IMG/VR virus record: IMGVR_UViG_3300048999_000056
Location: 32,001 to 96,000 of that record
DNA length: 64,000 nt
Reading direction: 5' to 3' (one strand)
Source of the DNA: a virus
This document shows positions 3,494 to 55,912 of this stretch, piece by piece. How positions within the stretch are numbered: the stretch's first letter is position 1; each line of letters begins with the position of its first letter. The position numbers and the translations under genes were made by a program. The notes beneath the pieces were generated by a model. That model saw nothing but the letters and a program-made list of their open reading frames with translations, was not told the origin of the DNA and ran no database searches.

Positions 3494-4509
3494 TGGCACA
3501 GCAATGGATCAGGAAAATCAGTCTCGTGGTCGAGGGTGCCCAAGGCAGTATCGAGCTGAGCGCGTTGCGCGTCCGCTTCCACGTGTTCGCGCATACCAAC
3601 ATCGCGCCAAGCACGCTTGAGGCGCGCATCTTCAATCTCAATCCTGACAGCGAGCAGAAGCTGCTGACACAGATAGTTGATCCTTTGCCGTCGCTGCAAG
3701 GCTCCAATCCGAACAGCGGCGCCGGCAAGGTGACGTTGCAGGCTGGCTATGAAGAAAACTACGGCACCATCTTCAAAGGTGAGCTGATACAGGTCCGCCG
3801 TGGCCGCGAGGGTCTGGATACCTACATCGATCTGTTTGCCGGCGATGGCGACCGATCGCACAACTGGGCGGTGATCAACACGACATTGGCGGCGGGCTGG
3901 ACACCGCATGACGTGAACGATCAGATACGCAAGGCGATGTCAACTTACGATGTCACAGCTGGCAATCTGCCCGACGCCATCCCGGCCACCGCAGCGCCGC
4001 GCGGCAAGGTGGTTATGGGCATGGCGCGCGACACCCAACGCGATCTGAGCAATCAATTCAACGCGGACGGCTTTGTGCGCAATGGCAATCTCGAATGGCT
4101 GGAGCGCTCGGCCTACCGCCCTGGTGACATTGCCAAGATCAACGCGCAAACCGGCATGATCGGTCTGCCGCAGCAAACCAACTTCGGGCTGACGGTGCGG
4201 ATGCTGCTCAACCCCAGCGTCGGACCGGGCACGCTGCTCCAGCTGCAGAACAAGTCAATTCAACAGCTGCAGGCGTCTGGTCAGGTCGGTGCCGTGACAG
4301 AGAACACCTACCTGCAGAAAAACCTCAACTACGATTTCCTGACGGCGGCGGATGGCAACTATCGCGTGTTCGCGGTTGAGCATATCGGCGACACGCGCGC
4401 CAATGACTGGTACAGCGATGCGATCTGCGTCGCGACATCCTCCGGCATTCCGGGCGGTGCCGCCTTCCTCGTGCCGAAGCAGTATCTTGGATCGGAGGGC
4501 GTGCGGTGA
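3493..4509 (+). CDS. Baseplate hub protein
   Basis: RIFNLN...VTLQAGY...IF.G...TGMIGLPQQT...G.YRV..VEH.GDTR..DWYS motifs. Confidence 0.75.
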   Translation: MAQQWIRKISLVVEGAQGSIELSALRVRFHVFAHTNIAPSTLEARIFNLNPDSEQKLLTQIVDPLPSLQGSNPNSGAGKVTLQAGYEENYGTIFKGELIQVRRGREGLDTYIDLFAGDGDRSHNWAVINTTLAAGWTPHDVNDQIRKAMSTYDVTAGNLPDAIPATAAPRGKVVMGMARDTQRDLSNQFNADGFVRNGNLEWLERSAYRPGDIAKINAQTGMIGLPQQTNFGLTVRMLLNPSVGPGTLLQLQNKSIQQLQASGQVGAVTENTYLQKNLNYDFLTAADGNYRVFAVEHIGDTRANDWYSDAICVATSSGIPGGAAFLVPKQYLGSEGVR

Positions 4510-5138
4510 GCGGAAGCCTTGCTGGCAGCTCGGCGACGATCGCCGCACTCATTGGTGCGGACGTTCTTGAGGAAGTGTTCCTGCAGCCTCACAGGACCAT
4601 CGGGACCATCATTCCCGAGTGCGCCGTGGAGGAACATCATTCGGACCGATTACAGGTCACACAGCATCCGATCGAGATCGGCGCCAATATCTCCGACCAT
4701 GCCTACATGCTGCCTTTCGAGGTCACGTTGCGCTACGGTTGGTCGAACGCGTTGATCGGTGGACAGATACAGAACCTTGGCGATCGGTTCGCGGCGATCG
4801 GCAGCGAGAGTTTTCAACAAGTGATCTCGGGCGGCCAGACCGCCGCGATCTACGAGCATCTGCAGCAGCTGCAAGCGTCGCGCATACCCTTCAGGATCGT
4901 GACGGGCAAGCGCACCTATGCCGACATGCTGATTACGGAAATGGGTGTTACGACCGACGCGCGCACGGAGAACGTGCTGATTGTCGAGCTACACTGTCAA
5001 CAGATTATCAGGGTTTCGACCAGCTCTACGCCCGCAGCGGCGGCGCAGGCGATGCCGGAACAGACAGGTGACGCTATCAACACCGGGAACCAGCAGCTTA
5101 CGCCGGTTCCCGGTGGTGCCGTGACGGGTGTCGCTTAG
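4506..5138 (+). CDS. Baseplate organisation / tube-initiator-like protein
   Basis: EEHHSD.L.VT.HPIE.GA.ISDHAY..P and IVTGKRTY..MLI motifs. Confidence 0.7.
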   Translation: MSGSLAGSSATIAALIGADVLEEVFLQPHRTIGTIIPECAVEEHHSDRLQVTQHPIEIGANISDHAYMLPFEVTLRYGWSNALIGGQIQNLGDRFAAIGSESFQQVISGGQTAAIYEHLQQLQASRIPFRIVTGKRTYADMLITEMGVTTDARTENVLIVELHCQQIIRVSTSSTPAAAAQAMPEQTGDAINTGNQQLTPVPGGAVTGVA

Positions 5139-5785
5139 TGGACGAAGTTGCAGGCTAGGTGCGCTGTGCCGTAGTAGTCGGAACCCATGCCGCGATACGA
5201 GCTGAGACAGCTATCCCAGAGCATCTGCTGGCTCTGTGCCGTGGCGCCCGCCGCGCCGCCAGGATGGCGTTGACAGGCGCCCTGATCTCCATAGTAGCAC
5301 GTGATGGCGTCGCGGTTCTGTTGGGCTTGTGCGGCGATTGCGTCCTTCTGCGCCTGAGGCAGACAGCCGGACGGATTGTAGCTGTTGCAGACGTGGTTCT
5401 GATTCGCCTTGTGATACTCGGTTGCCAGCTCGCGATTGTTGATCGTCGCCTTGTCGCTTTCCCATTGCTGGCAGGTCGCCGAGCCTTGGGCGTAGGGGCA
5501 TGACTCCGGAGCAGCCCAGCCGGAGCCGGCATACAGCTTGCGGACTTCAGCGTAGGACATCGTGCCGGTGATCTTCGGCGGGCACGATCCGGCTGGTGGA
5601 CCGCCCGGTTGTTGATGGTAAGGCACTGGCCGCCCGGTCTGTCCGTCAACAACGTTCGTGCAGCCTTTGTCGGCGAAACCGCCCGTGTGGTGCCACTCGT
5701 TCCATGCGGAATACGGGTGACCGAAGCTGCCGTCAGCATTGCAGCCGGCGAGGGTGATGCAGGCGGTGAGGATCAAGGCGCGCAT
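5135..5785 (-). CDS. Cys-rich lipoprotein, antisense moron in the baseplate operon
   Basis: Signal peptide with lipobox LAGC; many Cys; opposite strand to neighbours. Confidence 0.6.
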   Translation of the reverse strand: MRALILTACITLAGCNADGSFGHPYSAWNEWHHTGGFADKGCTNVVDGQTGRPVPYHQQPGGPPAGSCPPKITGTMSYAEVRKLYAGSGWAAPESCPYAQGSATCQQWESDKATINNRELATEYHKANQNHVCNSYNPSGCLPQAQKDAIAAQAQQNRDAITCYYGDQGACQRHPGGAAGATAQSQQMLWDSCLSSYRGMGSDYYGTAHLACNFVH

Positions 5786-12600: not shown

Positions 12601-14526
12601 GGCACGTGGCAGCCGGCAGTCTGGTATACTGATGCAAACGGCAGTCCTGATGGCTACGGGATCGATGACGGCTGGTTTGTCAATCCATTCAACCCGGCGA
12701 CGCCGATCAACGACATATATACGATCGTCAGTGGCTCTTTGAACCTCGCGATCGAAGCCAAGCCGGCAAGCGTCGCTCCCTCGGCTGTCGGCAACAAGCC
12801 TTACATGACTGGGCAGCTGCAGACACAGCCGACATTTCGGCAAGCAGGCGGCTACTTTGAAGCGCGGCTTGCCTGTCCGAAGTTGGATGGAACCATGTTC
12901 GCGTGGTGGTTCTATTCCGACAACGGCAACCAGATGAACCTGGAGATTCCGACCGTCCAGGGCGGCGGTCAGTTCGCCAAATACAGTCTGTGGAACCAGG
13001 GCTCGCAGGCGATCGTCAACGAGTTCTACAGCTACAACATGGCGAGCCCGATCGACTGCACGCAATTCCACACTTACGGCATCGATTGGAACCCGCCAAC
13101 CGGACTGATGACGTTCTACATCGATGGCGCACAGGTTATGCAGGCGCCGATCCCGGCCGGCTTCACCGATCCGATGTACATGCTCTTGTCGAGCTACACA
13201 GGTTCGGCCGGCTGGTATGGTTCGATCACCAATCCTGCCGGGTTGCCGATCAAGATGCAGGTTGACTACGTGCGCGCATTTCCGATCGGGCATGGTCCTG
13301 GTAGCGGTGTTGCCGCGCAACCTGTCACGACGTTCCTGAGTTCGCTTGGCGTCAACGTCCATATCGATCAGGGTTTCAGCGCGAACTCATATATCACACC
13401 GCTGCAGTTCACCGGGATCAAGAACATCCGCACCGGCTACAGCAACATTGGCGGTGCCGTGACGGCGCACAACTCAGCCGGCGTAATGGTCAACGTGTTC
13501 GGTTCGTCTGATCTCACGAGTCACCTTGCAGCAGCGCGGACTCTTGCCACCAACGGCGCGCTGCTATCAATCGAAGGACCGAACGAGCCCAACAATTTCC
13601 CCTTCAGCTACCTGGGCAATCAGGGCGGCGGCTCGGGCACATGGGTCCCGGTAGCGCAGTATCAACGCGATCTTTATGCAGGCGTCAAAGCCGATAGCCA
13701 GCTGCAGAACTTCCCCGTGTTCCACGTTTCTGAGGGTGCCGGCGAGACGGACAACGTTGGCATGCAGTTCCTGACGATACCGAACGGCGCCGGTATCGCC
13801 ATGCCTGACGGCACGAAGTATGCCGACTATGCCAATCCGCACAACTACGTCTCAGGCAATCTGGGCGGTCAGTATGTCAACAACACGGCATGGAACGCTG
13901 CCGATCCGACATTGAACGGCTCCTGGGACGGGCTCTATGTGGAGTATGGGCGGACGTGGCGCGGCGGCTTTGCCGGCTACAGCAATGCGGACTTGCAGAC
14001 GTTGCCACGCGTCACGTCAGAAACCGGCTGGGACTCGACCTCGCTTGGCGAGACGATACAGGGCAAGGTTCTGCTCAACACCTACCTCGCGCAGTTCAAG
14101 CGCGGGTGGCGCTACACGTTCATCTATGAAATGTTCGACCAGGAAGCGTCATCGGGCAACCAGGGGCTGTATCGCAGTGACAAGGTGACGGCGAAGCTGG
14201 CCGCTACCTACATTCACAACATGACAACGATATTGGCTGGCGGGTCGAACATCGCCACGACGCCGCTTGCCTATTCGATCGCCAACCAGCCGGCGACTGT
14301 GCACGATCTGTTGCTGCAGAAAACCGGCAACGTCTATGATCTGATCGTCTGGGGCGAACAGGTATCCGGTTCAAACAACGTGGTTGTCAACCTTGCGGTG
14401 GCACGTTCCTCCATCAAAGTCTTCGATCCGACTGTCGGCACGGCTGCTGTGCAAACGTTGACAAATGCCAGCTCCGTGACGCTTTCGGTGAGCGATCATC
14501 CCTTCATCATAGAGATCACGCTCTGA
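9667..14526 (+). CDS. Large multidomain appendage: clan GH-A hydrolase, Ig-like, FN3, SPRY-like, degenerate GH16, second GH-A hydrolase
   Basis: WEIGNE / FLSEWN and IEGPNEPNN / TSETGW catalytic pairs; FN3 repeats; GGYFEAR...FHTYGIDW...MQVDYVR. Confidence 0.75.
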   Translation: MPNLTINLGSLTGKTVPAALYGFSTGALADNGFANAAATATKNALTTIKPTLVRVNANQQIPEKYGTGNTGYTNNWWNNRAAFMDPNHTFVMSAGPSSDTGLPYSASQEATYASNFATAMRNAGHEITTWEIGNESLNILPDVASYLNYYLPIARALHTVNANYKVGGPATTWWGAYDPAQFANGVAAGDCDFYEFHAYNFQGVTDHASIYNGAKNFGDADSIRTALRNTKLANVPIFLSEWNLDGDFNTNPGIQITYVGAIADALLSTRMWQGDPNIMGAAYWDAISDPKFGAIETNGQINPPGYYLGYAGQHMPGAEVTVSGVSGNLQVLATKNGSNVAIQLVNYDTASASANNITLTGGQPSGAITRWEIGKSNQSTPNVSTQASLSSVNVPSEQIVILTFSTAAAQRSLTVNAITGAQVGSTFTVSGTLTNFTSAPTLLYSDDGGGTQALPAGANVTATSYSFTHPAPTIAGNHTIVVTDGTNSASATYSVVDITWQSRPLTGSLSDTVTGLAPSTSYDFRVSAQNSLGSGPFSTVVTRSTGTVAPTLPGAPVSVSSSAVSSSSVTVTWGAPTTGSAPFTYRVQSSPAGLGTWTNRGTGVSGTSLPVTGLAAATSYDFRVFATNSVGEGPASSTYNVSTTTAAAAVTWDPANIGGGATLSNSNLTVTANGSTTPGTAFQGVRSTVSQSAGKLAFEVTTNALTQDMEIALVNGNHAQTTDAGEDQLNGIAFYPSGGGGSQAPMSVYQNSVQVLVPSGSPISDSPGSIVTFCVDLTARLFWVTSNAMRSVYGASAWNDSASANPATGVGGIPINITGALFICFFSSEGGAVVTLNAGSSTFSTFVPSSFAAWGGTGAITAPGAVTSLSGSPSSTSVQLTWSAPTIGTTPFTYHMQMSPTGTNTWSDQGTSSSVSGTVAGLTPGTGYDFRVYAANAAGNGGFSNTITVSTTSGVSGTTFDEEFGTLSLLNTRNTAAGGTWQPAVWYTDANGSPDGYGIDDGWFVNPFNPATPINDIYTIVSGSLNLAIEAKPASVAPSAVGNKPYMTGQLQTQPTFRQAGGYFEARLACPKLDGTMFAWWFYSDNGNQMNLEIPTVQGGGQFAKYSLWNQGSQAIVNEFYSYNMASPIDCTQFHTYGIDWNPPTGLMTFYIDGAQVMQAPIPAGFTDPMYMLLSSYTGSAGWYGSITNPAGLPIKMQVDYVRAFPIGHGPGSGVAAQPVTTFLSSLGVNVHIDQGFSANSYITPLQFTGIKNIRTGYSNIGGAVTAHNSAGVMVNVFGSSDLTSHLAAARTLATNGALLSIEGPNEPNNFPFSYLGNQGGGSGTWVPVAQYQRDLYAGVKADSQLQNFPVFHVSEGAGETDNVGMQFLTIPNGAGIAMPDGTKYADYANPHNYVSGNLGGQYVNNTAWNAADPTLNGSWDGLYVEYGRTWRGGFAGYSNADLQTLPRVTSETGWDSTSLGETIQGKVLLNTYLAQFKRGWRYTFIYEMFDQEASSGNQGLYRSDKVTAKLAATYIHNMTTILAGGSNIATTPLAYSIANQPATVHDLLLQKTGNVYDLIVWGEQVSGSNNVVVNLAVARSSIKVFDPTVGTAAVQTLTNASSVTLSVSDHPFIIEITL

Positions 14527-28049: not shown

Positions 28050-28797
28050 ACGCGCCGCTGTTGACGATCCGCGCATTCCGCGTATGTCAGTAGCGACGCA
28101 AGGCAAGCTGCCGTTTCCGCCCGCCAACGTGAACTGGTATGCGGCTGTCGGCGAGTGGGGCATGCTCGGCAATGACACGGTCGGCGATTGTGTCGAGGCC
28201 GCTGGCCTGCACGCGATGCTGCAGATGTCCACTTACGCTGGTGATCGGTCGATACCGACTACTGCGGACGCGTTGAAGTGGTACGAGGCGACCGGGTGGC
28301 GACCGGACGATCCATCAACCGATCAGGGGAGCTACGTTCTAGGACCAGAAGGTATGCTGCCCTGGTGGCATCTCAACGACGTTCCTTGCGGCGGACGGAC
28401 GACGCGGCTCGACGCATTCATGCAGATCAAGCAGAAGAACGTGACGGAATGGCGCCAAGGCATCTGGATATTCGGCGGTCTGCTGCTCGGCATACAGCTG
28501 CCGGAAGCGATTGTGTCCGGTATTCAAATCCCTTATGTCTGGTCGGAGTTCGGCGGCCCGATTGCTGGCGGTCACGAAATCTGGGTGCCTGGCTACCAGC
28601 AAAACGGATCGAGCCGGCTCTACGACCTGATCTCGTGGGGGCAGCGGTTCCGTGCTACCGAGGAGTTCCTGCTCAATTGCGTTGACGAATGCGTGGTGAT
28701 CGTGGACAACCGCGAGATGAACAAGCGCGGCGTCAATGCAGCTGGTCTGAGCTACACGCAACTGACGAATGACCTCAAGCTGATCAACAGAGGCTGA
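28027..28797 (+). CDS. Papain-like cysteine peptidase
   Basis: GND..GDC, GGH, ISWG motifs. Confidence 0.6.
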   Translation: MPAMKLGKRAAVDDPRIPRMSVATQGKLPFPPANVNWYAAVGEWGMLGNDTVGDCVEAAGLHAMLQMSTYAGDRSIPTTADALKWYEATGWRPDDPSTDQGSYVLGPEGMLPWWHLNDVPCGGRTTRLDAFMQIKQKNVTEWRQGIWIFGGLLLGIQLPEAIVSGIQIPYVWSEFGGPIAGGHEIWVPGYQQNGSSRLYDLISWGQRFRATEEFLLNCVDECVVIVDNREMNKRGVNAAGLSYTQLTNDLKLINRG

Positions 28798-28799
28798 CC

Positions 28800-29255
28800 A
28801 TGGCAATTCTCAACGCAACAGCCGGCATATCAGGTGTCGGCAGGCTGACGGCAATCGCTGCGGCAAAGGAAACAGCGACGGCGGTCCTGTCGGGCAATGC
28901 CAGCGTATTTGTCAACGCTGTCAATGCGCTGCATCTGGCGAGCCCGCCAAACTATCCGATTCCGCCGCAGGCGGATGACGCTGCGCCTGTCTTTCTTGTC
29001 GATCCGGCAACCGGTGCCGCAGTCGGCGCAACAGGACCGTACGCAAACGCACTGCCGGTGACGCCGGCCGATGTCGGCTCACTGCCGGCAACCACGCGTG
29101 CGTTGTGGATCGGCGGTGCCGGTAACGTGACGGTTGACACTCTTGGCGGACAGACAGTCACGCTGACCGCAGTGGCAGCAGGAACATTGCTGCCACTGCA
29201 AGTCTCGCGTGTCCGTGCGGCGACAACGGCGACGTTGGTCGTCGCGTTGTGGTGA
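28800..29255 (+). CDS. Head spike-base-like virion protein
   Basis: VTP.D...L..TRALWIGGAGNV.V......V......G.LLP..V.RV....TA...VALW. Confidence 0.6.
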   Translation: MAILNATAGISGVGRLTAIAAAKETATAVLSGNASVFVNAVNALHLASPPNYPIPPQADDAAPVFLVDPATGAAVGATGPYANALPVTPADVGSLPATTRALWIGGAGNVTVDTLGGQTVTLTAVAAGTLLPLQVSRVRAATTATLVVALW

Positions 29256-29256
29256 T

Positions 29257-30263
29257 GCCTGCGCTGACGGGTCGCACCCTGCCGCGCCTAACCGTGTCGG
29301 GCGATGCCTGCCAAGCCCTGACAATCCACGTCTTGCGTTGCCGTGCCGTGCCGGGCCTGCCGGGTCAAGCCGGGACCTTCCGAGCGTTGCGATGCCGCGT
29401 CTGCCCCGCCATGACATGCCTTGCCGTTGCGAGCGTAGCCTTGCCTGCGCTGTCTTGCCGTGACGGACCTAGCCGCGCTCTGCCCTGTCGAGCCTGCCAT
29501 GCCATGCCCTGACGATCTATGCCATCCCGAGCCGAGCCTAGCCAGCCACGTCAAGCCGTGCCTTGACACGTCTTTCCAAGCCTAGCCGAGCCGAGTCTGC
29601 GTTGACCTGCCAATCGATACCTCGCCGTGCCAAGCCGCGTCTGCCCTGCCTCGGCCTGCCGAACGATACCATGCCCTGCAGACCCATGCCTGCGATGCCG
29701 GAACGTGCCCTGCGCTCTCGTGCCACGTCACCACGTACCCTGCCTGCGCCGCCTCAACGCGTCCTACCGAGCCAAGCCGAGACAAGCCTGCGATGCGGCG
29801 CCTAGCCTCGCCTCGACGGATGTCGCCTCGCCTAGCCTGCGTTGCCACAACCAGCCCCCCGAGATCAGGCGAACCCAGCGTGTCCAAGCCTGCCACGCGC
29901 CGCCCGGACTGCCCTTGCCTATCGGTGTCGCCCCGAGCCGGCCGCGCCCTGCCTCGCCCAGTCTCGTCCTGCCAGGACGTGCCTTGCCTGCCCCGTCGTG
30001 ACGTGCCCAGCGCGGCGTAGCCGAGCCTGCCATGCCATGACCGGTCTAGTCCCGCCTAACCATAGCGGGCCGCGCCTGCCCCGCCATCCGGGCGTCGCCT
30101 TGCCGAGCCTTGTCGAACCATGCCTGCGACGCCTTGCCACGGCGTTACGCGTCTAGCCGCACCTTGCCGAGCCTGCGACGCGATGCCTTGCCAAGCCACG
30201 TCGCAACCCGCCAAGCCTGCGTTGCCATCCCTCGAATTGCCCAGCCAACGCTAACCCTGCCCT
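29257..30263 (-). ncRNA. Array 1: 21 non-identical units of (NN-GGY)n pentamers with GCAGGC junctions; candidate guide-RNA array
   Basis: GCCTGC-type junctions on + at 29257, 29306, 29355, 29399, 29443, 29492, 29541, 29595, 29639, 29688, 29742, 29786, 29835, 29888, 29937, 29986, 30025, 30074, 30122, 30171, 30215; 18 of 20 spacings equal 5n+4; no credible ORF. Confidence 0.8.
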
Positions 30264-30276
30264 GTACACAAGGCGA

Positions 30277-30292
30277 GGCGGCCGAAGCCGCC
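30277..30292 (-). other. C(UUCG)G tetraloop hairpin in the array leader
   Basis: Minus strand GGCGGC-TTCG-GCCGCC, perfect 6-bp stem. Confidence 0.7.
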
Positions 30293-30317
30293 CCGTTAGT
30301 GTTAGATATTATGACTG

Positions 30318-30839
30318 CTACTGTCTGCGGCGCTTTCGCCCTGCCTTGCGGTCGGGGCCTTTGCGTGCTGGCGACTTCACCGTGCCACCTTCCAGCTGAT
30401 CCTGCCGGCGCCGCTCCAGTTCGGCAATCCGCTGGCCTTCATCGAACAGGCGCGACATTTCGGTCAACCGCTGATACTTGATATGGAAGCGGTTGAAGTC
30501 ATCTAGCGCGTCCTTCAACATGACGCGCCGCAAGTCACGATCGGGCAGAATGCGATCAAGCGGACGATAACCGCCGCCCGCGTGACGATCGATACTCAAC
30601 GAGATCATGGTGCGCTGCCCGGTATCGTCAACAACATGAATGGCAATCAGGCGGCGTATCTGGTCGAGCCGATAGCGGTATCCTGCCTTGGCGTCTTCCC
30701 ATTCGAGTTCTTCATGCAGTGCCGAGCTGGGATGCGTAGCAGCCCAGTCGTGCACCACCTTGACGTAGAGATTGCCATCGGGATCGAGCCGGCGCAGCGC
30801 CTCCAGTTCCTGCTGGATGCGCGCCGTGGATTCAAGCAT
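30318..30839 (-). CDS. Accessory protein adjacent to the array
   Basis: GGAGG RBS; start MLESTAR; S.LH..LEW.D.KA...YRL.Q.R.LI motif; basic C-terminus. Confidence 0.7.
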   Translation of the reverse strand: MLESTARIQQELEALRRLDPDGNLYVKVVHDWAATHPSSALHEELEWEDAKAGYRYRLDQIRRLIAIHVVDDTGQRTMISLSIDRHAGGGYRPLDRILPDRDLRRVMLKDALDDFNRFHIKYQRLTEMSRLFDEGQRIAELERRRQDQLEGGTVKSPARKGPDRKAGRKRRRQ

Positions 30840-31080
30840 TGTTCGGCCTCCTGGTTGAACGCGCGGCCCAGCCGATAGCGTTCGCCAGATCGCCTTTTTC
30901 CATTGCCAGCTCATACTTGTTGAGTGCGAGCATGTGTTGCGTGAACTTGCGCTCGCGCCGTGCCCATGTGCCAATACGCCGCTTCCTCCGAGGCGGCGTT
31001 TCCTGCAATGCTTTCTCCTTCAGCGCCTCTTGTGCGAGGCGCTGCCCTTCACGGGTTATGTTTTTCAACCGGCTAAGCAT
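30832..31080 (-). CDS. Small basic helical protein
   Basis: 82 aa; overlaps both neighbours by 8 nt, suggesting translational coupling. Confidence 0.55.
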   Translation of the reverse strand: MLSRLKNITREGQRLAQEALKEKALQETPPRRKRRIGTWARRERKFTQHMLALNKYELAMEKGDLANAIGWAARSTRRPNNA

Positions 31081-32083
31081 TGCTGTTGACTACGTCCCAC
31101 AAGCCCCAGTCCAGACCGTTGGAGTTCGGCGAGGAGGGCCGCCCCTCGCCGACGCCGACCTGCATACCGGCAATCGCCATCAGGTTGACCACGTCGGTTG
31201 CCGAGAACTGCCGCGCGTCCCAGCGGACGGTCACGGCGGCGTTCCACTTTTCCCACATAGGCCGGTGGCGGATATCGGCAACGCCTGATGCGTTGCGGGC
31301 TGGCGCCTCGTGCAGCCGTGGCGTGCCGTTGATCTTGACGAGCGGCTGCCCATCCTGATCGAGTCCGTCCGGCACGATGAACAACGACAGCTTGGCGCGT
31401 GTCATCGTGAAGCCGGCAAGGCGGCACGCGTCAATCATCGCGTTGCGGAAAGCCGGCGCCGGAATGCCGTGCCATCCGTCACGCGCGATATGCTGCGCCA
31501 GACGGTAGATTTCTTCGAAGTCCTTCGGCTCGCGACGGCGGCGTGACTTTTCGCCCTGCGAACCCGCCTTCTGCCGCTCCACCATCATGTTGACGGCTTT
31601 CTGGCTGAATTTGTGTTGCACGTAAGGCGTAGAGCCTCTGATGTAGACGATGCCGCGATCGAACTGCGGCGGTTGAATGACGACGCGCGTCACCTTGCCG
31701 CTCAACACGCCAACCGTGCCTTGCTCCATGGTGCTGTCGAGCGTTTCGATCGGGATCGGCGAGGCGGGTATCCTGCCGAAATTGTCGGTGTTGCGCATTG
31801 ACGGCCCGGCTACTGCACCCTTGCCGTTCTTGCCCTTGCCGTTCCGACCGATCGTCGCCTCACGTTCCGCCAGCAGGTCCGCAACCGGATTGCCGCCAGC
31901 GTGCGCCGCCTCGAATGCGGCTTTCTGCTGTCTCTCGTCGCGTGACATAGGTCCGCGCTTGCCGGGCTCGCGTGCCCAAACGGCCGGCTCAACGTCTTCG
32001 ACTGCGGGAGCTGTCCCCCTCTGCGCCAGCTTCTTGGCCTTCAATGCCTTCTTGGCGCTTTTCTTGTCCTTCAACGTCGTCAT
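31073..32083 (-). CDS. Stand-alone RAMP/Cas7-like protein, candidate RNA-guided effector
   Basis: IRGSTPYVQH first strand, GIPAPAFRNAMIDAC helix, RPMWEKW, terminal Gly-rich loop AGMQVGVGEGRP...WG.W; start MTTLKD with GAGGGA RBS. Confidence 0.7.
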   Translation of the reverse strand: MTTLKDKKSAKKALKAKKLAQRGTAPAVEDVEPAVWAREPGKRGPMSRDERQQKAAFEAAHAGGNPVADLLAEREATIGRNGKGKNGKGAVAGPSMRNTDNFGRIPASPIPIETLDSTMEQGTVGVLSGKVTRVVIQPPQFDRGIVYIRGSTPYVQHKFSQKAVNMMVERQKAGSQGEKSRRRREPKDFEEIYRLAQHIARDGWHGIPAPAFRNAMIDACRLAGFTMTRAKLSLFIVPDGLDQDGQPLVKINGTPRLHEAPARNASGVADIRHRPMWEKWNAAVTVRWDARQFSATDVVNLMAIAGMQVGVGEGRPSSPNSNGLDWGLWDVVNSNA

Positions 32084-32134
32084 GTCGTTTTCCCTCATGT
32101 ATGCGATGGGCGCGGCTTTTATTGCCCGCCATCC

Positions 32135-32166
32135 TATATATACAAAACGCCTATTCGTGTTGAACT
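32135..32166 (-). promoter_or_regulatory. Phage promoter-like motif TCAACACG-N12-GTATATAT
   Basis: Recurs at 34886-34917 and 39742-39774; here it lies upstream of the RAMP-like gene. Confidence 0.6.
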
Positions 32167-37758: not shown

Positions 37759-38079
37759 TCAGAAATTTCCGTTGATTACGTCGCTGGATTGTAAGCGCCG
37801 CCATCCAACCGTATCACAATAATATATACGATCCTGATCGAGCGCCACAATGTCTGCCATCGACATTGAGTAACTATTGAAGTTTCTCGGGTGCGCCGTG
37901 TTGAAGATCAGATACAGCCATTTCAACGCGTCGTCATCGGTGCTGCTATGCTCCTCTGCGATAATACCGTTGAACGTGTCGCGGTAGTCGCACCGATCGA
38001 TCTTGCGGCGTGGATTGAACGGGCGGAACGCGACCTCGCATATGCGCCCGATGCGAACCTGATATAGCGTGAACTTCAT
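37759..38079 (-). CDS. YodL-like protein
   Basis: L..LY..FN..HP..F..YSMS..DIV.L.....YYCD.VGW. Confidence 0.7.
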   Translation of the reverse strand: MKFTLYQVRIGRICEVAFRPFNPRRKIDRCDYRDTFNGIIAEEHSSTDDDALKWLYLIFNTAHPRNFNSYSMSMADIVALDQDRIYYCDTVGWRRLQSSDVINGNF

Positions 38080-39741: not shown

Positions 39742-39780
39742 ATATATACAAAAGCCGCTAGTCCGTGTTGAACTAGCGGC
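39742..39780 (-). promoter_or_regulatory. Promoter-like motif overlapping a terminator hairpin
   Basis: Minus strand GCCGCTAGT-TCAACACGG-ACTAGCGGC-TTTT-GTATATAT. Confidence 0.6.
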
Positions 39781-43143: not shown

Positions 43144-44580
43144 TCACTTGCCGTGCTCGGCTTCGTCTGTCTCCTCGGTCTGCTCTTCTGCGGGTTGTTT
43201 TCCGGTGACACGGTCCAGCTCACTTTCTGTTGCCTGATCCATATATACGCTCGATAGGTGGAATTGCCCAGTGACGTAGGATTGCGAGATAAGCACGCGG
43301 AACTTATCCTCCTCGTCACGTGCGGCATCAACGAGGATACGCGCGAGGCCCATCTTGCGTTCCTCGTCGGTGCGGTTGAACGTCAGTACGGTATCAGCTG
43401 TGCCGACCTTGCTCCAATCCTCCGACACGCCTTTCGAGCCGAATAGCTTGGCGCCCTCGGTCGCTCGATTGCCCTGCGTCGGCGCGCACAACGCCATGTC
43501 ACGCCGTACGCACAGACCGCGCAATTGCTGATACAGCCGCCCGGTGTCGATCCGCAGATTGTCGGCATTGATCGACATGAGATCGGGATAATCGATGATC
43601 AGCAGGTCGGGCACGAAGTTCTCTTCGCGCGCAAGCATGTCGAGATAGGCATCGAGCTGCGGAACTGTCAACGCTCCTGTCGGCCATCCTTTGATCAACA
43701 GGCGCGGACGCAAGCCGAATGACTGCAGCCGGCGGACGATCTCCTGCTTGCTGGCGGTCATCAGGCCCATCGCCTGATACTCGTGCAATGTGATCATGCC
43801 GGACAGCCTGCCGGTCTGCGGATCACGCGACAGCTTGGGCAACTGCACGGTCTGTGCCTCGCGCTTGGTCCAGGCATTGAACGCTTGTACATACCGGCGC
43901 TTCGTCAGTTTCTCCGAGTTCTCCAATGTCATGTGCAACGTCGTATGCCCATCGCGGAAATTGGCCTTGCCGAGATTGACGCACCACCAACTTTTGCCTG
44001 CCTTCTTGGGAGCAATGAACAACGTAAACGTGCCGCGCTCCGGGCGGATGCCGCGTATGTCCAGTTCTTCCACACCGGACGAGAACCGCTCGCCGCTGGT
44101 CTGTTCAACGAAACTGAGATCGGTATCGTGCAGCCACGTGCCGCGCGTCATGCGCGAACGGAACGCCGGTTGCCCCCAAATCAGCTCGTCAGCCTTTGTC
44201 TCGTCACCGGCCTGCAATACCTCCAACGCGTTCTCCAGCGCATTCATCTTGGATTGCCGCCGCATCCAGTCGTCGAGGCCGCCAATGACGAAATTTGGAT
44301 CGAGATCGGCCTGCACGCGTTGCGTCTCGTCAATTATGGACGCCATGAACTTGCCTTCGCTGCGCTTCAGCTCGTTCTCCATCACGTCGCGGATATGCCC
44401 CTGCGGTGCGTGCCTGTAATCAACGATGAACTTGATTGCGGCTTCCGCTATGCGTTGAAAGGCTCTGGTGCTGAATATCTCCGGCTCCAAGATCGATGCG
44501 AGCATGCTTGCGTGCTCGTTGTTCCAGATCAACAGGGTGATAACGTTTTCCTCGGCAGTGCCTTGCAGTTGATTAGCCAT
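43144..44580 (-). CDS. DnaB-like replicative helicase
   Basis: APKKAGKS Walker A, TLE, IIDYPD, TQGNR, SEDWSK. Confidence 0.85.
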   Translation of the reverse strand: MANQLQGTAEENVITLLIWNNEHASMLASILEPEIFSTRAFQRIAEAAIKFIVDYRHAPQGHIRDVMENELKRSEGKFMASIIDETQRVQADLDPNFVIGGLDDWMRRQSKMNALENALEVLQAGDETKADELIWGQPAFRSRMTRGTWLHDTDLSFVEQTSGERFSSGVEELDIRGIRPERGTFTLFIAPKKAGKSWWCVNLGKANFRDGHTTLHMTLENSEKLTKRRYVQAFNAWTKREAQTVQLPKLSRDPQTGRLSGMITLHEYQAMGLMTASKQEIVRRLQSFGLRPRLLIKGWPTGALTVPQLDAYLDMLAREENFVPDLLIIDYPDLMSINADNLRIDTGRLYQQLRGLCVRRDMALCAPTQGNRATEGAKLFGSKGVSEDWSKVGTADTVLTFNRTDEERKMGLARILVDAARDEEDKFRVLISQSYVTGQFHLSSVYMDQATESELDRVTGKQPAEEQTEETDEAEHGK

Positions 44581-51659: not shown

Positions 51660-51706
51660 CTTGGTTCTGCCTTTGAATTGGTAGCTTCCCTACCCCCTAT
51701 ATACGA

Positions 51707-55270: not shown

Positions 55271-55900
55271 GCCTGCGCTGCCGCTGCCCGCCCTGCCTTG
55301 CCGAACCGGGTCATGCCAAGCCAGCCCTGCCGGTCCGAGTGCTGCCCTGGCTAGCGTAGACCTGCCACGCCGGCCATGCCCTGCCTTGCCTTCCCGGACG
55401 TGCCGAGCGTGGCCTGCCATGCCGAGCGTTGACCTATCTTGCCGCCCTGGCCGTTCCGAGCCAAGCCTGCCGATCCGCGTCGATCCGCGCCAAACCTAGC
55501 CGCGCCTGCCACGTCTCGCCACGGCGGGCGGGTCGATGCCATCCCGCGCCATGCCCGCCATGTCAAGCCTTTACGTGCCCTGCCTAGCCGATACGAGCGG
55601 TGCCTGCGTTGCCGAACGTTTGCATGCCCCGTCTAGCCAATACAGGTCGCGCCTGCGTTGCCAAATCGCACCCCGTCTAGCCGACACAAGCCCCGCCTGC
55701 GATACCGAGCCATACGCAGACTGGCCTAGCCGTGCCCTGACGAGCCTGCCCCGATCAGACCTCGTCGGTCCATGCCTAGCCGAGCGCAGCCTGCGTTGAC
55801 GATCCGCGTCTTGCCCGGTCAACCCGTGCCATGCCTAGACCACCACGCCTGCCAAGCGTTGCCGATACGAGCGCTTCCTTGCCGGGCCGAGCCGCGCCTG
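55271..55900 (-). ncRNA. Array 2: 13 (NN-GGY)n units with GCAGGC junctions
   Basis: Junctions at 55271, 55320, 55369, 55412, 55465, 55504, 55553, 55602, 55651, 55695, 55744, 55789, 55847, 55896; modal spacing 49 nt. Confidence 0.75.
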
Positions 55901-55912
55901 ATTCCTATATAC

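What the first reader, a model, noticed from the sequence alone, without database searches (positions are those of the whole stretch)
29257..32166. Candidate phage RNA-guided system: stand-alone RAMP/Cas7-like gene plus a pentamer-coded (NN-GGY) guide array
Seen: a minus-strand unit of promoter motif (32135-32166), RAMP-like gene (31073-32083), 82-aa gene, 173-aa gene, UUCG hairpin and a 1-kb non-coding array. The protein has a Cas7/RAMP-like layout: an N-terminal strand I.G.TP..H, an IPA.AFR helix and a terminal Gly-rich loop (AGMQVGVGEGRP). No cas1, cas2, cas5, cas6 or cas8 and no CRISPR repeat-spacer array is present in the window. The array has 21 units, all different. Each is a run of pentamers with a semi-constant triplet (mostly GGC) alternating with a variable dinucleotide; for example 30214->30171 reads TT-GGC GG-GTT GC-GAC GT-GGC TT-GGC AA-GGC AT-CGC GT-CGC AGGC. 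Inference: the protein polymerises on processed unit RNAs, one subunit per pentamer, and the variable NN pairs spell a gapped target, making this a programmable interference or repression system with about 34 guides across both arrays. It matches my recollection of recently reported phage VIPR-type systems (RAMP-like protein plus GGY/NN RNAs). I cannot verify that here, so it may be a new member or variant rather than a new class.
Basis: partly seen in the sequence, partly recalled or inferred. Interest (0 to 1): 0.95.

Follow-up and report, generated by a model that had tools for sequence, protein, structure and literature searches.

The report
Phage VIPR system, staggered guide arrays
This uncultured 113-kb phage carries a genuine VIPR system, the CRISPR-related RNA-guided DNA silencer first described in 2026 preprints: a small Cas7-like protein, a partner protein and about 35 five-base-coded guide RNAs in this window, so it is a good new example of a published kind, with targets still unknown.

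Summary
On the minus strand lie a recurrent GTATATA promoter-like motif, a 336-aa gene, an 82-aa ORF, a 173-aa gene, a UUCG hairpin and a 1006-nt array. The array tiles completely into 182 five-base NN-GGY words and 24 four-base junction words (mostly AGGC), giving about 22 units of 5n-1 nt. A second array with the same grammar lies at 55899-55271.

The protein core (137-336) folds as a RAMP: the top 28 structure matches are CRISPR Csm3/Cmr4/Cas7-type proteins, best Z 10.6. Its family profile aligns with the characterised SUSP1 Vipr (hhalign 85.7%, E 5.5e-6). Four of five GG-contacting residues are kept.

In 79 of 80 related viral loci, a same-strand pentamer array sits beside the gene. The 173-aa gene follows it in 66 of 80. 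The 5n-1 spacing recurs across these relatives.

This matches the 'staggered' vrRNA arrays of the VIPR preprints, so it is a new member of a known kind.

Guide searches with the published one-base-skip rule gave only chance-level hits, so targets remain unknown. RNA expression and binding are inferred by homology.

The scan has logged similar VIPR loci in at least 98 other genomes.

The parts
32137..32143 (-). GTATATA promoter-like motif about 55 nt upstream of the vipr start codon, in the 67-nt gap after the upstream 193-aa gene
   Evidence: 7 copies in the window, all on the minus strand, against 0.92 expected. The same motif precedes every orphan array in the genome. No sigma-70 consensus site was found here.
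31073..32083 (-). vipr: 336-aa RAMP protein. Residues 1-135 form a basic, mostly disordered, lineage-specific N-terminal arm. Residues 137-336 are the conserved Vipr core, with beta-1 ending in His157, thumb Arg274 and G-loop GVGEGRP (310-316).
   Evidence: AF2 core pLDDT 80-98. Foldseek top hits are Csm3/Cmr4/type VII Cas7, E 8.5e-5. VIA Z 10.6, rmsd 3.9, 147 aligned to Csm3 9g9a_D, and the top 28 rows are all CRISPR RAMPs. hhalign to SUSP1 Vipr: 85.7%, E 5.5e-6, 165 columns. PHROG 4652 E 3e-14. 1472 homologues. Single copy in the genome; the N-terminal arm has a coding GC3 profile.
30832..31080 (-). 82-aa basic ORF (pI 11.5). Its start overlaps the vipr stop and its stop overlaps the vap start. 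It is a lineage-specific insertion between vipr and vap; function unknown.
   Evidence: Absent from 80 related loci. One 71%-identical homologue in 5.8 billion proteins. No family match.
30318..30839 (-). vap-like accessory gene, 173 aa. Residues 1-97 form a compact alpha/beta domain with weak winged-helix resemblance. Residues 100-151 form a helical hairpin, followed by a Lys/Arg-rich tail.
   Evidence: Found directly downstream of vipr on the same strand in 66 of 80 related loci. PHROG 15946 E 6.5e-11. AF2 pLDDT 91. Foldseek best hit is forkhead/winged-helix DNA-binding domains, only at E 0.17, prob 0.66. VIA found nothing specific.
30275..30294 (-). 8-bp GC-rich hairpin with a UUCG loop between the vap stop and the array. 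No U-tract follows it. It may be a 5' structure of the array transcript or a leaky attenuator.
   Evidence: Present in both the MFE and centroid folds. Not called as an intrinsic terminator. Not conserved: in most relatives the array starts right after vap.
29257..30262 (-). vrRNA array A1: about 22 staggered units of 7-10 NN-GGY pentamers, each closed by a 4-nt junction word (mostly AGGC), so unit length is 5n-1. It abuts the stop of the convergent tail-fibre gene.
55906..55912 (-). GTATATA promoter-like motif 6 nt upstream of the first AGGC of array A2
55271..55899 (-). Orphan vrRNA array A2: about 13-15 units with the same grammar, 24 kb from vipr. It lies between a 164-aa gene and the DNA polymerase I gene and is followed by a T5 run.

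Best explanation
This is a VIPR (Viral Interference Programmable Repeat) system of an uncultured 112.8-kb phage. From a phage GTATATA-type promoter the phage transcribes vipr (a minimal RAMP), a small lineage-specific ORF, a conserved accessory gene (vap-like, possibly DNA-binding) and array A1. Array A2 in the window, and three more arrays elsewhere in the genome, have their own copies of the promoter motif.

By homology with the SUSP1 system, Vipr protomers bind the array RNA one per pentamer. They sequester each GGY triplet and expose the NN dinucleotides. The NN pairs then read double-stranded DNA with one skipped base between pairs, giving programmable binding and transcriptional silencing of a competing element.

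The arrays are of the 'staggered' type. Units of 7-10 pentamers are punctuated only by a 4-nt junction word, a -1 phase slip. There is no structured tail or ribozyme.

Shown here: the array grammar, the RAMP fold, homology to a characterised Vipr with its GG-binding residues, and the conserved vipr-vap-array linkage. Inferred: transcription, processing, filament assembly, DNA targeting and the identity of the targets.
For: Published system and rule.

Array: period-5 signal beyond all 500 resamplings; NN variable with GGY conserved; complete tiling by 5- and 4-nt words.

Protein:
- RAMP fold by two independent structure searches.
- Profile alignment to SUSP1 Vipr over 165 columns. SUSP1 H17, R138, D177 and R179 (GGY contacts) align with H157, R274, E313 and R315. 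R274, E313 and R315 are invariant in 38 family members.

Comparative:
- 552 IMG/VR contigs encode relatives.
- 79 of 80 fetched loci carry a long same-strand pentamer array next to the gene.
- CAGGC spacing is 4 mod 5 in 493 of 690 cases, with modes at 44, 49, 54 and 59 nt.
- vap follows vipr in 66 of 80 loci.
- In the one informative close pair (L002/L004, 94.6% identical), differences are 10 times denser in arrays (14.5% against 1.4%). 31 of 48 substitutions fall on NN positions, and whole units are gained or lost.

Context:
- Complete phage genome, no Cas1, no CRISPR-like repeats.
- No self-target in the phage's own genome, as the preprint reports for other VIPRs.
- The promoter motif precedes the operon and all orphan arrays.
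Against: No natural target was found. Exact 1-nt-skip scans of the viral and metagenome collections gave hit numbers expected by chance, and no contig was hit by two guides.

The tryptophan that stacks on G2 in SUSP1 (W178) is an invariant glycine here. GGY recognition may therefore differ in detail.

Only half of the triplets are perfect GGY; the rest are CGC, GAC, GTC and similar.

In five other close pairs of relatives the arrays are no more variable than their flanks.

The hhalign probability is 85.7%, not above 95%.

The preprint states that the staggered architecture was not among those confirmed by small-RNA sequencing. No RNA or binding data exist for this phage.
Confidence: 0.85

Rival explanations
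1. It is a VIPR-type ribonucleoprotein, but it is used differently from the characterised type II systems. For example, it might repress host chromosomal genes, or bind RNA, rather than silence rival mobile elements.
For: The only perfect 20/20 match found lies in a bacterial LivM-like ABC permease gene. It is antisense, with every skipped base on a wobble position. W178 is replaced by Gly. No mobile-element target was found.
Against: One hit is what chance predicts for 20 specified bases in a collection of 241 million records. No second guide hits that 13-kb locus. The wobble phase has a 1-in-3 prior. The published systems bind dsDNA and aim at phages, prophages and satellites.
Confidence: 0.08
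2. The pentamer tracts act as DNA, not RNA: for instance as binding sites for Vipr, Vap or another protein, or as G-rich structural DNA. The gene linkage would then reflect a DNA-protein pair.
For: No transcript data exist for this phage. Vap has a weak winged-helix-like domain. The arrays are strongly strand-asymmetric and G-rich.
Against: The arrays are co-oriented with vipr in 79 of 80 loci and usually start right after vap, as expected for co-transcription. A promoter-like motif precedes each orphan array in the array's own orientation. The homologous SUSP1 protein co-purifies with array RNA and was solved bound to it. The fold is an RNA-binding RAMP.
Confidence: 0.04
3. The tracts are slippage-generated pentanucleotide microsatellites or mis-called Gly/Ala/Arg-rich coding sequence, with no guide function. 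The RAMP-like gene is unrelated to them.
For: Overlapping ORFs of 50-124 aa can be drawn through the array. One database homologue was called with an N-terminus that reads through such an array.
Against: The period is 5, not 3, with a -1 slip every 7-10 words, so no reading frame is kept. No two units are alike, and NN varies while GGY is kept; slippage would give identical copies. The grammar and the gene linkage are conserved across 133 loci from many phyla.
Confidence: 0.02

Closest known systems
VIPR systems with 'staggered' vrRNA arrays (bioRxiv 10.64898/2026.04.26.720920, main text and legend of fig. S18)
   Same: A stand-alone Vipr RAMP plus one accessory gene in a phage. [quoted passage not shown] That is exactly the 5n-1 unit length and 4-nt junction word seen here.
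   Different: I could not see the figure or the type table, so the type number (I-VII) is unassigned. This phage has an unusually large repertoire: five arrays, about 4.2 kb in the genome. It also has a 135-aa basic N-terminal arm on Vipr and an extra 82-aa ORF inside the operon.
Type II VIPR of Escherichia phage SUSP1 (Vipr 195 aa, vap1, four vrRNAs; cryo-EM in bioRxiv 10.64898/2026.04.26.720927)
   Same: A homologous Vipr core with conserved His on beta-1, thumb Arg-Pro and a G-loop GVG(D/E)xRP. The gene order is vipr-vap-array on one strand. The RNA is GGY/NN pentamers.
   Different: SUSP1 vrRNAs are about 100 nt with 9-16 repeats and an invariant structured 3' tail (pseudoknot). Here there is no tail, only AGGC junctions. 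SUSP1 W178 is Gly here. The two vap proteins show no detectable similarity. SUSP1 has 4 guides; this window has about 35.
Solo/orphan vrRNAs of SUSP1-family phages and satellites (bioRxiv 10.64898/2026.10.15.759431)
   Same: Guide loci placed away from vipr with their own expression signals, like array A2 and the three arrays outside the window.
   Different: Those are single vrRNAs, some in elements that lack vipr. Here the orphan loci are long multi-unit arrays in a genome that does encode Vipr.
CRISPR class 1 backbone subunits (Csm3, Cmr4, Cas7, Csf2)
   Same: The RRM/RAMP fold with a glycine-rich loop and thumb (VIA Z 8-10.6). By inference, the same principle of one subunit per fixed RNA step.
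   Different: No sequence-level family match. No other cas genes and no repeat-spacer array. The step is 5 nt rather than 6, and the guide is non-contiguous.

Membership tests
VIPR system (Vipr + vap + vrRNA) | Vipr protein: a minimal single-RRM RAMP fold with a glycine-rich loop and thumb | tested here: met
   The AF2 core 137-336 is confident. Foldseek and VIA top hits are all CRISPR RAMPs, best Z 10.6. The G-loop GVGEGRP is invariant in the family.
VIPR system (Vipr + vap + vrRNA) | Sequence homology to an experimentally characterised Vipr, including the GGY-contacting residues | tested here: met
   hhalign of the family profile against SUSP1 Vipr: 85.7%, E 5.5e-6, 165 columns. H17/H157, R138/R274, D177/E313 and R179/R315 are kept; W178 is Gly314.
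VIPR system (Vipr + vap + vrRNA) | Flanking non-coding tract of at least four YNNGG / GGY-NN tandem pentamers on the gene's strand | tested here: met
   182 pentamer words in A1 and 113 in A2. The period-5 signal exceeds the controls. 79 of 80 relatives show the same.
VIPR system (Vipr + vap + vrRNA) | Minimal locus with an adjacent accessory (vap) gene, no other cas genes and no CRISPR array | tested here: met
   The 173-aa gene is conserved next to vipr in 66 of 80 loci. There is no Cas1 and no CRISPR-like repeat in the genome. Which of vap1-6 it corresponds to could not be determined.
VIPR system (Vipr + vap + vrRNA) | Virus-encoded context | tested here: met
   The genome is a 112.8-kb virus record with terminal repeats and CheckV completeness of 100%. 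Tail-fibre, DNA polymerase and RNR genes flank the locus.
VIPR system (Vipr + vap + vrRNA) | vrRNAs are expressed, processed and bound by Vipr | not testable with these tools
   This needs small-RNA sequencing and pull-down. Only promoter-like motifs and co-orientation support it.
VIPR system (Vipr + vap + vrRNA) | NN dinucleotides match natural DNA targets under the one-base-skip rule | tested here: inconclusive
   Only chance-level hits were found in the phage's own genome, 133 related loci, IMG/VR, the metagenome contigs and 201 alphaproteobacterial genomes. The searches were exact-match and covered only a few guides.
Staggered vrRNA array subtype | Adjacent vrRNAs share a 1-nt overlap, so the pentamer phase slips by one at each boundary, without ribozymes or long tails | tested here: met
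   Units are 5n-1 nt with 4-nt junction words. The spacing rule holds in relatives, 493 of 690. Rfam found no ribozyme. The description comes from the legend of fig. S18.
CRISPR-Cas class 1 effector (Cas7/Csm3/Cmr4) | Match to a curated Cas7-family sequence model | tested here: not met
   There is no Pfam, NCBIfam or PADLOC match at E up to 1.
CRISPR-Cas class 1 effector (Cas7/Csm3/Cmr4) | Association with a repeat-spacer array and adaptation or other effector cas genes | tested here: not met
   No 20-mer recurs at CRISPR-like spacing. There is no Cas1 in the genome.

The most novel reading that the evidence does not exclude
In this clade the only punctuation between guides is a 4-nt junction word, a -1 slip of the pentamer phase. 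Guide length and 3'/5' end formation may therefore be set by the Vipr filament stalling at the slip, or by Vap or a host RNase reading it. That would be a processing and measuring mechanism different from the tail-pseudoknot and ribozyme solutions tested so far. The phage also deploys an exceptionally large repertoire, roughly 85 guides in five separately promoted arrays, about 3.7% of its genome. This may allow timed or broad multi-target silencing, perhaps including host genes.
Probability: 0.25. Interest if true: 0.55.

Novelty: new member of a known kind. Interest (0 to 1): 0.35.

Why it matters
VIPR is a very recent discovery. Its staggered-array form is described only from sequence; the preprint says small-RNA sequencing confirmed the other two architectures. 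This phage offers a clean, complete test case. It has one vipr, one conserved vap, an operon-linked array and four orphan arrays with their own promoter motif. Mapping RNA ends relative to the AGGC junction could show how tail-less guides are cut and measured. A full target search could show what a soil phage with about 85 guides is fighting. It does not change the picture of what VIPR is.

Tried and rejected
1. Target search under the published one-base-skip rule.
- Own genome: best scores equal those of NN-order shuffles. Only the trivial 3-skip self-match is perfect.
- 133 related loci: chance level.
- Exact scans of IMG/VR: guides with 20 or 18 specified bases gave 0, 2, 0 and 0 hits. Two 16-base seeds of 22-base guides gave 12 and 49 hits, none extending beyond 19/22.
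- The two 18/18 hits lie in unrelated genes, one out of wobble phase.
- Metagenome scans: 0 hits, then 1 hit (LivM-like permease, 20/20). That is about the chance expectation, and no second guide hits nearby.
- 201 alphaproteobacterial genomes: 2 hits against 6 for the reversed control.

2. NN composition against codon-position models. The antisense position-1-2 model fits best (-3.99 bits per NN) but no better than uniform (-4.0). This is inconclusive.

3. Translating guides into degenerate peptides, a lead from earlier scan notes. I recognised no diagnostic motif by eye.

4. Sequence-family searches of Vipr, the 82-aa ORF and Vap in Pfam, NCBIfam and PADLOC found nothing. PHROGs gave only 'unknown function' families. 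PDB by sequence found nothing.

5. The Vap fold gave only weak forkhead/winged-helix resemblance (E 0.17) and generic helical-hairpin matches. I do not claim a function.

6. Rfam and tRNA scans of the window found nothing. The sigma-70 and terminator scans gave nothing relevant.

7. The hairpin after vap is not conserved in relatives.

9. No cultured phage is close: DNA polymerase identity is 31% or less, so the host is unknown.
Full report
WHAT IS THERE

The window is bases 32001-96000 of a single-contig virus record of 112,818 bp. The record has a terminal direct repeat of about 130 bp and a CheckV completeness of 100%. On the minus strand between 32143 and 29257 lie, in order:
- a GTATATA motif (32143-32137);
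- a 336-aa gene (32083-31073);
- an 82-aa ORF whose start overlaps the previous stop (31080-30832);
- a 173-aa gene whose start overlaps the 82-aa stop (30839-30318);
- an 8-bp GC hairpin with a UUCG loop (30294-30275);
- a 1006-nt non-coding tract (30262-29257) that runs up to the stop of a convergent tail-fibre gene.

THE ARRAY

GG dinucleotides recur at lags 5, 10, 15 and 20 (63, 57, 59, 57 co-occurrences), against 5-8 at off-phase lags. Secondary peaks sit at 4, 9, 14 and 19. The lag-5 value exceeds all 500 first-order Markov resamplings (mean 28, max 59).

In register, positions 1-2 of each word are variable. Position 3 is G in 81% of words, position 4 is G in 71%, and position 5 is C or T in 91%. 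About half of the triplets are perfect GGY. The rest are one-off variants (CGC, GAC, GTC), in line with the 'internal degeneracy' the VIPR authors mention.

A Viterbi tiling that allows 3-, 4-, 5- and 6-base steps used only 182 five-base and 24 four-base words for A1. The four-base words are mostly AGGC. They cut the tract into about 22 units, mostly of 39, 44, 49 or 54 nt, that is 5n-1.

A second tract at 55899-55271 has the same grammar, with 113 five-base and 16 four-base words. Outside the window the genome holds three more arrays: plus strand 3531-5430, and minus strand 28318-27829 and 30118-29939, in genome coordinates. Together the five arrays span about 4.2 kb and roughly 85 units.

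THE PROTEIN

The 336-aa product has no Pfam, NCBIfam, PADLOC or PDB sequence match, and only a PHROG of unknown function. It belongs to a large family: 1472 hits in the protein collection, 552 IMG/VR contigs, and 53 genome loci from many phyla. The closest genome loci are Aestuariivirga, Vineibacter and Bradyrhizobium MAGs.

Most members are 205-240 aa. Only the C-terminal 200 residues of the window's protein are shared. The first 135 residues are basic (pI 10.1) and mostly disordered in the model, but they show the same codon-position GC profile as the core, so they are probably translated.

The AlphaFold model of the core is confident, with pLDDT 80-98. Two independent structure searches return only CRISPR RAMPs at the top:
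- Foldseek: Csm3, Cmr4 and type VII Cas7, at E 8.5e-5 and above.
- VIA-align against 48,161 chains: Z 10.6 (rmsd 3.9, 147 residues) to Csm3 9g9a_D. All 28 best rows are Csm3, Cmr4, Cas7, gRAMP, Csf2, Cmr6, Cmr1 or Cas6.

LINK TO THE PUBLISHED SYSTEM

The paper library holds three 2026 preprints on VIPR systems. They describe a phage-encoded minimal RAMP (Vipr), an accessory gene (vap) and vrRNAs made of alternating GGY/NN pentamers. One Vipr protomer binds each repeat. The NN pairs read dsDNA with one skipped base between them.

I fetched phage SUSP1 (KT454805) and located its locus: a 195-aa gene at 28474-29061, a 146-aa gene, and GGT-pentamer RNAs in both flanking gaps. The profile of the window's family aligns with SUSP1 Vipr over 165 columns (hhalign 85.7%, E 5.5e-6).

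The residues the cryo-EM paper names as GG contacts (H17, R138, D177, W178, R179) align with H157, R274, E313, G314 and R315. R274, E313, G314 and R315 are invariant in 38 family members. So four of the five are kept or conservatively replaced, and the stacking Trp is a Gly.

The preprint also describes 'staggered' arrays in which successive vrRNAs overlap by 1 nt. That is the 5n-1 grammar found here. It adds that the ribozyme and single-guide architectures, but not this one, were confirmed by small-RNA sequencing.

COMPARATIVE SUPPORT

Of 80 IMG/VR loci fetched around homologues, 79 have a long (250-1350 nt) period-5 GG tract on the gene's strand. The tract usually starts 400-500 nt after the gene, sometimes also upstream. 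Opposite-strand signals are short and sporadic.

In these arrays, the spacing between successive CAGGC words is 4 mod 5 in 493 of 690 cases, with modes at 49, 54, 44 and 59 nt.

The 173-aa protein is found directly after vipr in 66 of 80 loci, so it is this clade's accessory gene. It has no detectable similarity to SUSP1 vap1. Its model (pLDDT 91) shows a compact N-terminal domain with only weak forkhead/winged-helix resemblance (E 0.17, prob 0.66), then a helical hairpin and a basic tail. A DNA-binding role is a guess. The 82-aa ORF is absent from all 80 loci and has a single 71%-identical homologue.

One close pair of relatives (L002/L004, 94.6% identical) differs 10 times more in its arrays than in the flanks. 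31 of its 48 substitutions fall on NN positions, which make up a third of the sites, and whole units are inserted or deleted. Five other close pairs have arrays as conserved as their flanks. Guide turnover is therefore seen, but not everywhere.

EXPRESSION SIGNALS

GTATATA occurs 7 times in the window, always on the minus strand, against 0.92 expected; none of 100 shuffles reached 7. Across the genome it sits just upstream of the vipr operon and of each of the four orphan arrays, in the array's orientation, and before several genes. No sigma-70 consensus promoter or intrinsic terminator was called in the locus.

In most relatives the array begins within a few tens of bases of the vap stop, with no conserved hairpin. 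A1 is therefore most simply read as co-transcribed with vipr and vap. The UUCG hairpin is a local feature of uncertain role.

TARGETS

I converted well-formed units into NNx patterns as in the preprint.
- There is no self-target in the phage genome, and nothing above shuffled-order controls in 133 related loci.
- Exact scans of IMG/VR and of the metagenome contigs with the longest guides gave hit numbers expected by chance.
- The one perfect 20/20 match lies antisense in a bacterial LivM-like permease gene, with all skipped bases on wobble positions. No other guide scores in that 13-kb locus, and about one such hit is expected by chance.
- Two 18/18 hits lie in unrelated genes.
- A sample of 201 alphaproteobacterial genomes gave fewer hits than the reversed control.
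- NN composition did not discriminate between codon-phase models.

The searches were exact-match and covered only a handful of guides. This leaves the target question open; it is not negative evidence.

VERDICT

The locus meets every defining VIPR feature that can be tested from sequence. It fails the tests for a CRISPR-Cas Cas7 module: no family model match, no repeat-spacer array, no Cas1.

It is a new member of a published kind, of the staggered-array form. The scan's own index already lists comparable VIPR findings in at least 98 genomes.

Particular to this phage are:
- the large multi-array repertoire;
- the orphan arrays, each with its own promoter motif;
- the long basic N-terminal arm on Vipr;
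- the extra 82-aa ORF inside the operon.

Mechanistic steps beyond the anatomy (transcription, processing at the junction word, one protomer per pentamer, one-base-skip DNA binding, silencing of a rival element) are inferred from homology to SUSP1 VIPR.

Noticed in passing
outside the window: genome 3531-5430 (+), 28318-27829 (-), 30118-29939 (-); window = genome 32001-96000: Three further NN-GGY arrays with the same 5n-1 grammar, each directly preceded by a GTATAT(A) motif. The 1.9-kb plus-strand array is the largest. Together with A1 and A2 they make about 4.2 kb, or 3.7% of the genome.
   Followed up: partly
window 12716-12722, 37823-37829, 39743-39749, 43242-43248, 51698-51704 (all minus strand): Further copies of the GTATATA motif. 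They are often preceded by a T-rich stretch and, in several cases, by GAAAAC-like sequence about 15 nt upstream. This looks like a phage-specific promoter class rather than a sigma-70 consensus.
   Followed up: partly
genome 2-130 and 112692-112818: A direct terminal repeat of about 130 bp, so the record is probably a complete genome.
   Followed up: no
phage records H1-H30 (Cyanophage Cy-LDV1; Mycobacterium phages Gorge, Donkeykong, Brocalys, Saal and others; Gordonia phages Pipp, ODay): Cultured phages encode homologues of this Vipr core at 33-53% identity, all annotated as hypothetical protein. They could serve as laboratory models for this VIPR clade.
   Followed up: no
P0087: A database homologue was called with an N-terminal extension rich in Gly, Ala and Arg. 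It is evidently a translation of an upstream pentamer array, so gene callers over-extend into vrRNA arrays.
   Followed up: no
window 31080-31073 and 30839-30832: The two gene junctions (vipr/82-aa ORF and 82-aa ORF/vap) have nearly the same overlapping stop-start sequence (AATGCTTAG and AATGCTTGA). This suggests the 82-aa ORF was inserted at a duplicated junction.
   Followed up: no
L196:936-964 (metagenome contig Ga0137409_10002524): A perfect one-base-skip match of guide 29741-29688 in a LivM-like branched-chain amino-acid ABC permease gene. It is antisense with the skips on wobble positions. It is compatible with chance but worth re-checking in a full search.
   Followed up: partly
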